From Longimicrobiales bacterium (lineage in GTDB: Bacteria; Gemmatimonadota; Gemmatimonadetes; Longimicrobiales; Gaopeijiaceae), in contig CBDDCX010000005.1 in assembly GCA_965226375.1 (NCBI GenBank), positions 96,001 to 160,000 on the forward strand: a stretch of DNA of 64,000 nucleotides, given 5' to 3'. Positions 57,100 through 61,110 of this stretch are shown here, in pieces (the first letter of the stretch is position 1; every line of letters begins with the position of its first letter). The position numbers and the translations under genes were made by a program. The notes under the pieces are model-generated. The model did not search any database. It saw only the letters and a program-made list of their open reading frames with translations, and was not told the DNA's origin.

Positions 57100-58260
57100 T
57101 TACCGGCTCGCCCACCAGTCCCGGGGTGCCATGCGCTTTCCGTAACCCAGCTTGACGTCGAGCCAAAGCATGAGACGCCTGAGGGGAGTGCCGGCCAACC
57201 ATTGCCCCACGCGGGCCCACCATTTGGTGTAGTCCTTGTTGTAAGGGCAAACTCGCACGCAGATCGAGCAGTCCGTGTTTTGTGCGGTCCAATAGCCGAA
57301 GCACTTCTCCCCATCCACGGACCACTTGCTCACACCGCGAATGTTGGACTCGTTGTATCGGTCGGTGCTGGGATCGTCTCCGGAGATGGCTTTGACCGGG
57401 CATGCGTCCGAGCAGCGCCTGCACACCTCGCAGAACTCCTGCACGCCGAAACGAATGGGTGCATCGTGCGCCAACGGGACGTCGGTGAAGACCTTTCCCA
57501 AGCGCACGCGTGGCCCGAACTCCTTCGTGATCAAGAGACCGAGCCGACCGTATTCGCCTAATCCGGCCTGGATCGCGGTCGGAATGGCCAGAGAGGTATC
57601 GTTCATGCTGGCCACGGCCCGGTACCCGAGGTTCTGGATGTACTGGGCCAGGGAAATCACAACCATGGCGTCGCGGGAGTAGCCGTGGCCCGTGGCCGCC
57701 CCACTCAGAGCAGAGGGTACGGTACGGATCAGGTCGTGGTCCATCGACTGGGCCGTCACGATCACGCTGGTCATGCCCTCAGGGATCTCCTGAGGTTTCT
57801 CACGCTTGCTCATGTCGCTGAACTTGTTGACGTACATCCAGCGCTCGTCGAACCGCGTGATGCCGACCAGGTCTGCACCAAAGGTCTTGGCTACGTGCTT
57901 GATCTCGTTCGCGGCCTGTTCGGGGGTGCCGAGGTCGATCTTCTCCGGCGCCACACCGCGGTAAAGCGTGAACTCGTCGCTGAAGCCCTCACGGCGATCC
58001 TCGTCTTCCTTGAGCTCGGTGAAGAGATCGCTCACGTGCCACGAGGCGTTCCGGAGTGCGTAGTCCTTCTGCGTGAAGCCGTCTGCCTTCCTGAAGGTCT
58101 TCAGGGGCTCCCGGTAGGTGGCGTAGAACAGCCGGGCCTTCTCGCTCCGGATACGCTCATCCCACCACGAGCGTCTGAACACGTCGTTCTTCTGGTTGAA
58201 GCGCTCGAAGTCATCCCGGATGTCGAAGCCTGCGGCTTCGTCGTGCTCACCTGAGGACAC
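57100..58260 (-). CDS. Reductive dehalogenase (RdhA-family) homologue, no Tat leader
   Basis: FGADLVGI, AGLGEYGRLG, GPRVRL.KVFTD.PL..D.P, CX2CX2CX3CP and CX10CX2CX3CP; GAGGAG RBS before the GTG. Confidence 0.85.
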   Translation of the reverse strand: MSSGEHDEAAGFDIRDDFERFNQKNDVFRRSWWDERIRSEKARLFYATYREPLKTFRKADGFTQKDYALRNASWHVSDLFTELKEDEDRREGFSDEFTLYRGVAPEKIDLGTPEQAANEIKHVAKTFGADLVGITRFDERWMYVNKFSDMSKREKPQEIPEGMTSVIVTAQSMDHDLIRTVPSALSGAATGHGYSRDAMVVISLAQYIQNLGYRAVASMNDTSLAIPTAIQAGLGEYGRLGLLITKEFGPRVRLGKVFTDVPLAHDAPIRFGVQEFCEVCRRCSDACPVKAISGDDPSTDRYNESNIRGVSKWSVDGEKCFGYWTAQNTDCSICVRVCPYNKDYTKWWARVGQWLAGTPLRRLMLWLDVKLGYGKRMAPRDWWASR

Positions 58261-58396
58261 GGGACTCCTCGAACCGTTCGGTGAAGGTCGCCGGCGTCCC
58301 GTCTATCGACTGCTTCCGTTCCGTCGCCTGAGCTTCACAGCCGGTGACGCACAGGAGCAAGATCGAGACTCCGAGGGTGACCTGTCTGGTTTTCAT
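58247..58396 (-). CDS. Short lipoprotein-signal ORF (49 aa), possibly a remnant
   Basis: MKTRQVTLGVSILLLCVTGC lipobox-like N-terminus; overlaps the start of the dehalogenase gene. Confidence 0.4.
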   Translation of the reverse strand: MKTRQVTLGVSILLLCVTGCEAQATERKQSIDGTPATFTERFEESRVLR

Positions 58397-58553
58397 GGCG
58401 GTACCACCGTCTTGCGGCGTCGAGACGTCTTTGCGGGAACCGACGGAAAAGGGGGACTCCGAGACTGAGAAGAGTACACCGGAAAGCCCTGCGCCGCTCG
58501 TGCGAATATATAGGGCGATGGCCCCGATCATGACCTGAATCGAAAGAGGTCCC

Positions 58554-59009
58554 GTGGGATTCCGGCGTCGTTCCGCACTTCTGACTTTTCTGTGTGTCCT
58601 GGGATGCGGAGACGACCCCTCCGGTCCGGCCGCGACGATGGCCACTGTCCGGTTCGTTTACATGGCTTCGACGACGACTGATCCGGGAGTCGAGACGGCG
58701 TTCCCCGATTGCGTCCAAGGCGTATCCGCGACCCATATCCATCCGGGATGGAGGGGCTTCAACGCGGTCTTCATGACGGCGATGGGGGACGATCGTTGGG
58801 AGATCACGTTTTCCGACGTGCCCGTGGGTGAGGAGCAACGCGTACGGGTCAGCGATCCCAACACGTGTGCCCTAAACCCTACCGGCGCGAGCACCGACGG
58901 CGTGTTCGCCAACGGCACTCTGTTGGTCCGCGTCGTGGATACTCCGGGGAGCGGCGTGGAGCCCGGTCTGTCCTTTCAGGTCTCGACAGACGGTACTGTA
59001 CGGCCGTAG
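58554..59009 (+). CDS. Putative lipoprotein
   Basis: MGFRRRSALLTFLCVLGC signal followed by a beta-rich domain; AGAGG RBS. Confidence 0.65.
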   Translation: MGFRRRSALLTFLCVLGCGDDPSGPAATMATVRFVYMASTTTDPGVETAFPDCVQGVSATHIHPGWRGFNAVFMTAMGDDRWEITFSDVPVGEEQRVRVSDPNTCALNPTGASTDGVFANGTLLVRVVDTPGSGVEPGLSFQVSTDGTVRP

Positions 59010-59058: not shown

Positions 59059-60974
59059 CTAGAGCCCGATCTCGGTCAGAAACTCGGAAATGCCGTCGAG
59101 CTGTGCGAGCCTCCAACTCTTGTGGTGCCTCAAGAACACCAGGGCGCCGATTCGCATCTCGGCCGCCTTGCGCAGCCGGGCCAGTGTCTCGTCGGTCCGC
59201 CCCAGAGCTGCGTACACCGACGCAAAGTCCAGGTGGAGAGCCACGTCGGCCTCTTCCCGCTCCCGTTCCTCGATGATGCCGAGGAGATCCTCGGCCTCCG
59301 ACGTGCACCCCACCATAGCTAGGGCGACCGCCAATGGAGTGATTCCACCCTTGGGGTGCGGCGTCAGCTCACGCACCTCCTCGAAGGTGGCGATCGCGTC
59401 CTCCATACGCCCCATCACCACGTACGTCCAGCCTTTGCCCTCGAGGGCGGCCCGGAACTCCGGGTCCAACTCCATGACCCGATCGAATTGGCCGAGGGCC
59501 TCGTCGAAATGGTCCATCGCCATGTGGGCTCGCCCCAGGTAGTCCCGCACCGGAAGGTTGAGGGGGTCGATGGTGACCGCCTTTTCCAGCACGTTAGCGG
59601 CTTCCTCGAACCGCCCCGCCGCACTGAGGTACATCGAATAGCTGTGTAATACGTCCACCGAATCCGGATTGATCGAGAGAGCCCGAAGGAAGGAAGCTTC
59701 CGCGCCGGGTAGGTCCCAGTCGTGGAAGAGTCGCACCAAGGCCAAGGCCACGTGCGAATCCTCGATGTCGGGGTTCAGTTCGATGGCCTTCTCGGCCGCG
59801 CTGCACGCGCACCCGTACGCTTCACCACAGTTGGTGAGCCGTCCCATGGCGGCAAGGAATGAGTGGCTGCGGGCCATCGCAGCCCACGCCTGCGCAAATT
59901 CGGGGTCCAGGTCGATGGCGTGCTGGAAGTGATCGACCCCCTGTCGCACCGCGTCGGGCGCCACTGATTCCAGCAGTACAAGCCCTTCAGATAAGAGTCG
60001 TATGCCTCCGCATTATCGGTGGGGGCGACGACGAGCGAGGGCTGCTGGCCATTCCCCGGTAGCGTTGCCCGGAGTTCGTTCGCGATCTCGAAGGAGATCT
60101 CGTCCTGCGTCTTGAAGATGTCTTCCAGGACTCGGTCGTACACCTTGGAAAAGATGTGGTAGCCATCTCGGGTGTCGACGAGCTGAGCGGTGATCCGGAC
60201 CCGGTTGCCGGCCTTGCGGACGCTTCCTTCCAGGACGGCGCTCACGCCCAGATCCCTTCCGATCTTTCTCACATCCTTGTTCTTCCCCTTGAACGCGAAC
60301 GAAGACGTGCGGGCCGTCACCTGGAGTCCCTCGACCCGTGTAAGAGCGTTGATGAGCTCCTCGGAGATGCCGTCGCTGAAGAACTCGTTCTCCGGATCGG
60401 CGCTCATATTGACGAAGGGGAGCACGGCGATGCTCCTCTTATTGTCTACTGGGGCCTTCATCCGCTTCGGATCGGGCACCACCAACCCGGGGGCCGAGAC
60501 CGCGAAGATCCGTATGGGTCGCTTGACGTTCTTCAGCTCGAACTGGCCCAACGCCTGGGCGGGCAGCTCCGGGTGGTTCTTGATCTCGTCGAATACCTTG
60601 CCCGATATGAGCACCGCCCCCGGGACCGACAGATCTTGGATGCGCGACGCGACATTGACGCCGTCACCGTATACGCCGTCCTCATCGTGGTTGATGTCTC
60701 CGATGTGGATTCCGACCCGCACGGGAATCGGATCACCCTCACGGAGCTGGCGTTGGGCCGCCACGGCTGCGTGCACCCCCTCGATCGCGCTCTCGAAAAC
60801 GCTGAGCGTTCCGTCACCGTAGCACTGGACGATCTCGCCACCATGCGCTTCGATCGACTCGCGCAGCGCGGCGCGATGCCGGTCCCGGATGCTCTTCGCC
60901 CGATGCTCGTCTTCCTGCATCAGGGCGGTAAAGCCCACCATGTCGGTGAACATGATGGCCGCGAGTCGTCGCAT
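59059..60974 (-). CDS. Class III nucleotidyl cyclase + TolB-like + TPR protein (frameshift near 59962)
   Basis: IMFTDMVG, GDG and GDGVNVASRI; SIAVLPFVNMS...EGSVRKAGNRVRITAQL; TPRs continue in ORF 59059..59964. Confidence 0.88.
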
Positions 60975-61110
60975 GTGTGGCCGTCCTCCGGTGTGCTGCA
61001 AGTGGGTGAGCATAAACCCTCCAACCCCTTGCATGGTGCCTACGAAATCGGGTCATCGGTAGATTCGGCAAGGCCCTCTGCGCGACCCGCTCTATTCCTT
61101 CAACAACCTC

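What the first reader, a model, noticed from the sequence alone, without database searches (positions are those of the whole stretch)
57100..58260. Stand-alone, Tat-less reductive dehalogenase homologue in an apparently aerobic host
Seen: a 386-aa protein with both RdhA iron-sulfur motifs (CEVCRRCSDACP and CFGYWTAQNTDCSICVRVCP), the AGLGE.GR.G/GPRVRL core and a Tyr (GHGYS) at about the active-site position. It has no twin-arginine leader, no adjacent rdhB membrane anchor and no fused reductase domain. Established: respiratory RdhAs carry Tat signals and rdhB, and catabolic ones are cytoplasmic and often larger or fused. Inference: a minimal cytoplasmic B12/Fe-S reductase with unknown substrate and electron donor, in a heme-O-making, probably Gemmatimonadota host not known for dehalogenation.
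Basis: partly seen in the sequence, partly recalled or inferred. Interest (0 to 1): 0.78.

Follow-up and report, generated by a model that had tools for sequence, protein, structure and literature searches.

The report
Leaderless marine B12 dehalogenase, known clade
The gene is a real, intact, signal-less vitamin-B12/iron-sulfur enzyme of a widespread marine family that very likely includes a Roseobacter enzyme already shown to strip bromine from bromophenols, so it likely does similar chemistry inside the cell and is a new member of a known kind, with its natural substrate still untested.

Summary
Observation confirmed: a 386-aa ORF (57100-58260, minus strand) passes the RdhA model (205 bits, cut-off 160), fails QueG (57, cut-off 200) and folds like PceA (TM 0.82). 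It keeps the catalytic Tyr/Asn/Arg and has no leader, anchor gene or reductase; independent contigs show no frameshift. It is no oddity of this host. It sits in a leaderless clade (support 1.00) spread over many marine phyla, whose hosts nearly all have heme-copper oxidases. The Roseobacter branch of that clade matches the published length and both Fe-S motifs of Ros_A3X954, a Tat-less enzyme shown in 2026 to debrominate 2,6-dibromophenol. A stand-in from that branch is 47% identical to this protein and shares 18 of 23 compared pocket positions; I could not fetch A3X954 itself. Tat-less, RdhB-less marine RDases, and RdhA-like genes in this host group, are already in print. The host appears to scavenge B12 rather than make it. 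Natural substrate and electron donor are open; the pocket's Arg70/Asp330 pair suggests halotyrosine-like compounds (untested). This scan has found the family before on other DNA.

The parts
57100..58260 (-). rdhA-family gene, 386 aa, no export signal; member of the leaderless marine clade
58265..58270 (-). Shine-Dalgarno-like GAGGAG, 4 nt before the GTG start; many close homologues start at the same residue
   Evidence: sequence; homologue N-termini
58039..58053 (-). Arg70-Asn71...Trp74: Trp74 = PceA Trp96 (pocket wall); Arg70 replaces PceA Glu92 of the upper cavity and is clade-specific
57679..57681 (-). Tyr194 = PceA Tyr246 / NpRdhA Tyr426, the proposed proton donor
   Evidence: 64 of 64 in the clade
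57601..57603 (-). Asn220 = PceA Asn272
57502..57504 (-). Arg253 = PceA Arg305 / NpRdhA Lys488, catalytic partner of the Tyr
   Evidence: 64 of 64
57397..57432 (-). first [4Fe-4S] motif, residues 277-288
57244..57303 (-). second [4Fe-4S] motif, residues 320-339; includes Trp324 (= PceA Trp376, where NpRdhA has Arg552) and Asp330 (replaces PceA Tyr382)

Best explanation
The gene encodes a soluble, leaderless reductive-dehalogenase-family protein that likely binds a cobamide and two [4Fe-4S] clusters and likely removes bromine or iodine from ortho-halogenated phenolic compounds in the cytoplasm. Shown here: family membership, PceA-like fold, full catalytic set (Tyr194, Asn220, Arg253), absence of leader, anchor and reductase, and clade membership with the Roseobacter branch. 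Inferred mechanism: B12 is imported (riboswitch-controlled TonB receptor, ABC-type binding proteins). Low-potential electrons borrowed from whatever the host has reduce Co(II) to Co(I) through the two clusters. The halophenol binds with its OH near Tyr194, halide leaves, and Tyr194/Arg253 supply the proton. In this host the best donor candidate is an unlinked 2-oxoacid:ferredoxin oxidoreductase operon with a GltD-like/ferredoxin fusion protein. The role is probably detoxification or salvage of natural marine organohalides rather than respiration or ring-cleavage growth.
For: RdhA model passed, QueG failed. PDB hits: PceA E 8e-56 and 4.5e-54, NpRdhA ~1e-31, QueG 1e-12. Model pLDDT 96.4; TM 0.82 to 8q4h, 0.74 to NpRdhA, 0.39 to QueG. 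Full-length tree: 43 leaderless rows incl. the query and 16 proteobacterial rows form a clade with support 1.00. Ros_A3X954 is 395 aa, TAT-free, with Fe-S motifs at 283 and 337; it turns 2,6-DBP into 2-BP (kcat 1.1/s, KM 71 uM), was inactive on 5 chloro-aliphatics, and is 72% identical to a Pararhodobacter enzyme reported to deiodinate 2,4,6-triiodophenol (PMC13101508). Proteins in our clade have the same length, first residues MS, and both motifs at those very positions (P0566, P0567); 42 of 119 proteins of that branch carry both motifs. P0566 is 47% identical to the query over 379 aa with 3 gaps; 18 of 23 compared pocket and catalytic positions are identical in all 16 branch members. Host B12 use: methylmalonyl-CoA mutase, four B12-binding frames, cobalamin riboswitch before a TonB receptor, PF01497/FecCD genes. 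39 of 44 clade hosts have the mutase. Ring-cleavage and phenol-hydroxylase markers are rare in hosts: HmgA 1 of 47, PF02332 3 of 47, neither in this genome.
Against: No activity is measured for this protein, and 47% identity to the characterised branch does not fix the substrate. A3X954 itself was not retrieved, so its placement rests on published motifs, length and genus neighbours. Ros_A3X954 was reported highly O2-sensitive (data not shown in the paper), which sits awkwardly with 43 of 44 hosts having heme-copper oxidases (5 of 6 non-clade controls have them too). The candidate donor occurs in 9 of 9 clade-bearing close relatives against 28 of the other 52 (kin not independent), but in only 10 of 44 clade hosts across phyla, so it is not a dedicated partner. 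No free ferredoxin or flavodoxin was found by motif scan (genome 90% complete). The reported activity used titanium citrate/methyl viologen and could be a side activity. Only two ring-catabolism families were searched.
Confidence: 0.68

Rival explanations
1. It is a cytoplasmic B12 reductase whose real substrate is not a carbon-halogen bond (for example an epoxide, N-halamine or other electrophile); halophenol debromination by the Roseobacter member would be promiscuity.
For: Strong conservation (71-97% identity over 120 homologues from several phyla) with no aromatic-catabolism neighbours. The superfamily does non-halide chemistry in QueG. kcat/KM of Ros_A3X954 is modest (1.5e4). In one genus the gene follows a class III aminotransferase by a few nt.
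Against: The PceA aromatic pocket (Phe28, Trp74, Trp324) and the Tyr/Asn/Arg set are kept. Two enzymes of the branch are reported to dehalogenate halophenols. The aminotransferase link holds for one genus only, and this genome has no orthologue (best 34-36%).
Confidence: 0.2
2. It is respiratory or energy-linked, docking on the cytoplasmic face of an unlinked membrane partner and taking electrons from quinol.
For: Sequence and fold are closer to respiratory PceA than to catabolic NpRdhA/BhbA. PMC12219181 files similar TAT-less Gemmatimonadota proteins under 'quinone-dependent respiratory' by phylogeny.
Against: RdhB-like ORF in 1 of 49 clade loci, and that hit has five hydrophobic segments and is not RdhB-like; controls 5 of 5. 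No membrane partner recurs across 163 loci. The host has TatC yet the protein has no leader. Hosts have terminal oxidases.
Confidence: 0.06
3. It replaces QueG as epoxyqueuosine reductase, since this genome shows no queG.
For: No QueG found in G000; some JGI records label members of the Roseobacter branch 'QueG'.
Against: 7 of 8 relatives carrying this clade also have a QueG above cut-off, including both same-genus genomes. G000 is 90% complete. QueG score 57.5 of 200, TM 0.39, and a long branch separates QueG.
Confidence: 0.02
4. It is an exported enzyme whose leader was split off by an assembly frameshift; the overlapping 49-codon ORF 58247-58396 has a lipoprotein-like signal.
For: That ORF overlaps the start by 14 nt, and a nearby gene in this assembly is frameshifted.
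Against: No indel in contigs of 4 runs across the junction. Same-genus genomes lose similarity 11-30 nt upstream of the start and lack that ORF. 0 of 121 close homologues have an RR leader by pattern, and their printed N-termini show none.
Confidence: 0.01

Closest known systems
Ros_A3X954 (Roseobacter sp. MED193 debrominase; PMC13101508) and A0A2T7UTL8 (Pararhodobacter aggregans; Ng and Silver 2024, seen only as cited in PMC13101508)
   Same: About 390 aa, no TAT, single catalytic domain, 54-residue spacing of the Fe-S motifs, same clade by stand-ins (support 1.00), same catalytic and most pocket residues incl. Arg70, Asn71, Asp78, Asp330.
   Different: About 47-50% identity to the stand-ins. 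His75, Phe80, Asp197, Gln327 and Asn328 differ (Leu/Ala/Ser, Ile/Val/Met, Glu and others in that branch). Different phylum of host. Activity untested.
Respiratory PceA (Sulfurospirillum multivorans 4uqu; Desulfitobacterium-type complex 8q4h)
   Same: Fold (TM 0.73-0.82), two [4Fe-4S] motifs, Tyr246/Asn272/Arg305/Trp96/Trp376/Thr242/Phe38 equivalents.
   Different: No Tat leader, no rdhB, no cobamide-synthesis cluster; Glu92 to Arg70, Tyr382 to Asp330, Tyr102 to Phe80; about 26-31% identity overall.
Catabolic NpRdhA / BhbA / JtRdhA
   Same: Cytoplasmic, Tat-less, RdhA catalytic domain; NpRdhA can run on non-cognate ferredoxin and reductase (PMC7565698).
   Different: No duplicated vestigial domain or fused reductase (386 vs 700-1070 aa); separate long-branched clade; lacks the phenolate-binding Arg552 (Trp324 here) and has Arg for Lys488; no ring-cleavage operon.
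QueG epoxyqueuosine reductase
   Same: Same superfamily core and Fe-S motifs.
   Different: 57.5 of 200 bits, TM 0.39, long separating branch; a true QueG co-occurs in 7 of 8 clade-bearing relatives.

Membership tests
Reductive dehalogenase (RdhA) family | Passes curated model TIGR02486 | tested here: met
   205.2 bits vs 160.35
Reductive dehalogenase (RdhA) family | Two [4Fe-4S] motifs with eight Cys | tested here: met
   C277/280/283/287 and C320/331/334/338, each invariant in 121 of 121
Reductive dehalogenase (RdhA) family | Catalytic Tyr plus Arg/Lys and Asn | tested here: met
   Y194, R253, N220 align to PceA Y246, R305, N272
Reductive dehalogenase (RdhA) family | RdhA fold | tested here: met
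   predicted model, pLDDT 96.4; TM 0.82 to 8q4h
Reductive dehalogenase (RdhA) family | Binds a cobamide and releases halide | not testable with these tools
   shown only for Ros_A3X954 (0.11 Co per enzyme, activity on 2,6-DBP)
Ros_A3X954 / A0A2T7UTL8 leaderless marine clade | Groups with the Roseobacter branch | tested here: met
   clade of 43, FastTree support 1.00, by stand-ins
Ros_A3X954 / A0A2T7UTL8 leaderless marine clade | A3X954 itself lies in that branch | tested here: inconclusive
   accession not among members listed; length, start residues and both motif strings and positions match P0566/P0567
Ros_A3X954 / A0A2T7UTL8 leaderless marine clade | About 390 aa, no TAT, shared pocket residues | tested here: met
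Respiratory RdhA (PceA type) | Tat leader | tested here: not met
Respiratory RdhA (PceA type) | Adjacent rdhB anchor | tested here: not met
   controls 5 of 5
Respiratory RdhA (PceA type) | Homodimer | not tested
Catabolic NpRdhA/BhbA type | Vestigial duplicated domain and/or fused reductase; groups with BhbA | tested here: not met
   386 aa; BhbA-type rows form a separate clade
Catabolic NpRdhA/BhbA type | Ser422/Lys488/Arg552 hydroxybenzoate site | tested here: not met
   Thr190/Arg253/Trp324
QueG | Passes TIGR00276 and groups with QueG | tested here: not met

The most novel reading that the evidence does not exclude
The clade is a B12-dependent halo-amino-acid dehalogenase, a cobamide counterpart of flavin iodotyrosine deiodinase, that lets aerobic marine heterotrophs recycle 3,5-dibromo/diiodotyrosine-type compounds from animal skeletons and metabolites. 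2,6-Dibromophenol and triiodophenol would be ring fragments of the true substrate. In PceA the para substituent points to a cavity lined by Tyr102, Tyr382 and Glu92. Here these are Phe80, Asp330 and Arg70 (Arg in 63 of 64 clade members vs 14 of the other rows; Asp in 58 of 64), an opened cavity with a charge pair that could hold an amino-acid side chain. Several loci put the gene on the same strand beside amino-acid permeases, an indoleamine dioxygenase or an aminotransferase (no background control). Two searches pairing reductive dehalogenase with bromo/iodotyrosine listed no paper proposing this (listings only). Arg70 and Asp330 may simply pair with each other.
Probability: 0.2. Interest if true: 0.65.

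Novelty: new member of a known kind. Interest (0 to 1): 0.27.

Why it matters
The architecture itself is no longer surprising. What remains of value is that one conserved, laterally shared enzyme family sits in oxidase-bearing marine heterotrophs of many phyla (25 of 251 Gemmatimonadota-phylum genomes sampled; at least 567 metagenome stretches). Those hosts mostly lack the ring-catabolism markers searched and have no dedicated electron donor. That points to a little-studied cytoplasmic sink for natural organobromine and organoiodine. With an expression system now published for a clade member, the natural substrate and donor are directly testable.

Tried and rejected
Frameshifted leader: rejected. 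QueG replacement: rejected. A conserved partner gene: none across 63 loci or 163 loci; recurrent neighbours are lineage-specific or generic ABC ATPases. A dedicated GltD-like/ferredoxin donor: only 10 of 44 hosts. A taurine or N-halo-taurine link, suggested by the aminotransferase upstream in one genus (its resemblance to taurine aminotransferase is recalled, not from a call): no orthologue in this genome. Phage carriage: none of 119 pattern hits in viral contigs was a relative. Promoter/terminator scan: nothing. De novo B12 synthesis: no CobS family hit, and 12 of 13 Sulfurospirillum cob/cbi queries gave no hit, the 13th only generic 21-30% hits; genome 90% complete. Expression: no RNA holder listed, which is no evidence either way. 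Homodimer prediction: tool not available. The core-only tree (235 columns, 198 of 199 rows kept) gave the clade only 0.78 support and an unresolved backbone, so its position among PceA-like groups is not settled. My Tat labels in those trees under-call (they missed Sulfurospirillum PceA). Ng and Silver 2024 is not held. The Word supplement of PMC12219181 (Fig. S21, the 'simplified cytosolic' type of about 395 aa) could not be read, so I cannot say whether that type is this clade.

Full report
Observation. The minus-strand ORF 57100-58260 encodes 386 aa from a GTG preceded by GAGGAG. Both Fe-S motifs, the AGLGEYGRLG/GPRVRL core and Tyr194 are as described. An in-frame stop lies 15 codons upstream. 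A 49-codon ORF with a lipoprotein-like signal overlaps the start in another frame, so I checked for a hidden frameshift. Contigs of four runs from three studies show no indel between 56900 and 58933; one spans the whole gene and upstream region and may be the source sample. Two same-genus genomes carry the gene at the same place, convergent with the PEMT-family gene, and lose similarity 11-30 nt upstream of the start. The gene is the only RdhA-like sequence found in this 90%-complete genome. Its GC3 (0.82) matches its neighbours.

Family. It passes TIGR02486 (205.2 vs 160.35) and fails QueG (57.5 vs 200). Among solved structures the best sequence matches are the respiratory PceAs, then NpRdhA, then QueG. 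An AlphaFold model from a 137-sequence alignment has pLDDT 96.4 and TM-scores of 0.82 (8q4h), about 0.7 (S. multivorans PceA), 0.74 (NpRdhA) and 0.39 (QueG). I took the pocket residues from passages of PMC5500849, PMC11921367 and PMC7565698 and mapped them by alignment (Sulfurospirillum sp. SP PceA stood in for the N-terminal part). Tyr194, Asn220, Arg253, Trp74, Trp324, Thr190 and Phe28 match PceA Tyr246, Asn272, Arg305, Trp96, Trp376, Thr242 and Phe38. The hydroxybenzoate-binding Arg552 of NpRdhA is Trp324 here. PceA Glu92, Tyr382 and Tyr102 are Arg70, Asp330 and Phe80. No coordinates were available, so this mapping is by alignment only.

A clade, not a one-off. The best 120 homologues are 71-97% identical and 379-440 aa long; 0 of 121 (query included) show an RR leader. 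GTDB loci come from Acidobacteriota, Gemmatimonadota, Chloroflexota, Binatia, SAR324, Marinimicrobia, Bacteroidota and Proteobacteria. The clade is in 9 of 61 close relatives (three further hits are 34-37% transmembrane types) and 25 of 251 genomes of the phylum. An RdhB-like scan hit 1 of 49 loci (48 loci plus the window; L044 and L062 were dropped because no intact ORF was picked) and found 5 of 5 controls. No neighbour recurs across phyla in 163 loci (72 immediate neighbours annotated). On 369 columns, 43 leaderless rows form a clade with support 1.00, apart from QueG, from BhbA/NpRdhA-type and from PceA rows (86 rows chosen by me from 199 plus 16 new ones). The backbone is unresolved. A tree holding six Gemmatimonadota rows together is rejected (p-AU 0.0003; the group was named after I had seen earlier trees), and the query's sub-branch mixes six phyla. 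Lateral transfer is the simplest reading; no donor is claimed.

The characterised relative. PMC13101508 (parts 1-4 of 7 read, plus passages and the whole supplement) reports Ros_A3X954 from Roseobacter sp. MED193. It is 395 aa, has no TAT, has Fe-S motifs at 283-294 and 337-345, and binds cobalt. It converts 2,6-dibromophenol to 2-bromophenol (kcat 1.1/s, KM 71 uM) with artificial reductant, is inactive on five chlorinated aliphatics, and is said to be highly O2-sensitive. It is 72.2% identical to A0A2T7UTL8, reported by Ng and Silver to deiodinate 2,4,6-triiodophenol (that paper not seen). A clade member already in my tree carried the start of the first motif. Searching from it gave Roseobacter-group proteins 44-52% identical to the query, 42 of 119 with both published motifs. 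P0566 and P0567 (Roseobacter sp. MedPE) have the published length, start residues and motif positions. P0566 is 47% identical to the query over 379 aa; 18 of 23 compared positions are identical in all 16 members of that branch. A3X954 was not among the cluster members shown (15 of 67 listed for the likeliest cluster), so its membership is a strong inference, not a look-up. PMC12660952 (passages and section 8) states that 95.2% of marine RDases lack Tat and RdhB. PMC12219181 (abstract, passages, 30 of 32 Gemmatimonadota rows of the supplement spreadsheet) describes a 'simplified cytosolic' type of about 395 aa and lists RdhA-like genes in family UBA6960.

Host. Taxonomy is inferred from the nearest named records: a UBA6960 genome at 89% for this protein, and a Longimicrobiales genome as close as the same-genus relatives for another protein. 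It has three heme-copper-oxidase-family genes, heme O synthase and TatC. It uses B12: methylmalonyl-CoA mutase with MeaB, and a 1254-codon B12-binding frame of MetH size. It has a cobalamin riboswitch before a TonB receptor plus PF01497/FecCD genes. No B12 synthesis genes were found. Of 44 clade hosts, 43 have heme-copper oxidases (5 of 6 non-clade controls too) and 39 have the mutase. No free ferredoxin or flavodoxin was found by motif. A GltD-like/ferredoxin fusion with a 2-oxoacid oxidoreductase lies about 95 kb away; it is in 9 of 9 clade-bearing relatives against 28 of 52 others, but only 10 of 44 hosts across phyla. No BhbA-type reductase or LigB hit was found; HmgA is in 1 of 47 and multicomponent phenol hydroxylase in 3 of 47 clade hosts, neither here. 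QueG was not found in this genome, but 7 of 8 clade-bearing relatives have it.

How it most likely works. Shown: intact gene, RdhA family and predicted fold, catalytic set, no export, anchor or reductase, and clade membership. Inferred: cobamide and cluster binding, cytoplasmic location, ortho-dehalogenation of bromo/iodo-phenolics as in the Roseobacter branch, electrons borrowed from host low-potential systems (probably during micro-oxic phases, if it shares the reported O2 sensitivity), and a detoxifying or salvage role, because the hosts mostly lack the ring-catabolism markers searched. The boldest reading not excluded is a halotyrosine-type natural substrate, from the Arg70/Asp330 pair and uncontrolled neighbour hints (p about 0.2).

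Verdict. Earlier notes of this scan report the same family on other genomes. Two of those call the family uncharacterised, which my result does not bear out; the two name Ros_A3X954, which I had found from the paper before seeing them. New member of a known kind; interest 0.27.

Noticed in passing
window 59059-61034 (-): An adenylate-cyclase/TolB-like/TPR gene is split into two overlapping frames. Contigs of 3 of 4 runs carry one extra base at 59960, while the fourth matches the window, so the break looks strain-specific rather than a plain assembly error. It is also two frames in G002.
   Followed up: partly
window 58247-59009: Two small lipoprotein-like ORFs without Pfam hits (49 aa, minus; 151 aa, plus) lie upstream of rdhA. 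They are absent at this spot in both same-genus genomes, where G001 has a pilin-like gene instead, so this is a variable slot between two LPS/lipid A gene clusters.
   Followed up: partly
G000 C5:55183-59843 (L203:11184-15843): A GltD-like FAD/Fe-S protein with a C-terminal 2x[4Fe-4S] domain, followed by 2-oxoacid:ferredoxin oxidoreductase alpha and beta. No free ferredoxin was found in the genome. Present in 37 of 61 relatives.
   Followed up: partly
G000 C8:1985220-1985356 (-) and downstream (L202:6911-10348): Cobalamin riboswitch before a TonB-dependent receptor with weak BtuB similarity, followed by a lipoprotein-like gene in two frames with no Pfam hit; possibly a divergent B12 uptake unit.
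   Followed up: partly
G000 C5:48137-50421 (L203:4138-6422): Cytochrome c gene followed by a divergent heme-copper-oxidase-family gene, inferred to be NorCB-like.
   Followed up: no
L110, L114, L115, L117, L118, L119: In one genus of another family the rdhA starts within a few nt of the stop of a class III aminotransferase (PRK07678, 482.9 bits vs cut-off 488).
   Followed up: partly
L014:4811-5953: In a Marinimicrobia genome an indoleamine 2,3-dioxygenase gene overlaps the rdhA start by 4 nt on the same strand.
   Followed up: no
G000 whole genome: No queG found although both same-genus genomes have one; probably in the missing 10%.
   Followed up: partly
L071/L075 (G001 C7:6606-7841) and L062: The orthologue is frameshifted in G001 and in the L062 record; assembly error and decay were not told apart.
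   Followed up: no
P0340, P0369, P0440 and others: Many Roseobacter-branch members are labelled 'epoxyqueuosine reductase QueG' or '3-chloro-4-hydroxyphenylacetate reductive dehalogenase' by source annotation; the first is very likely wrong.
   Followed up: no
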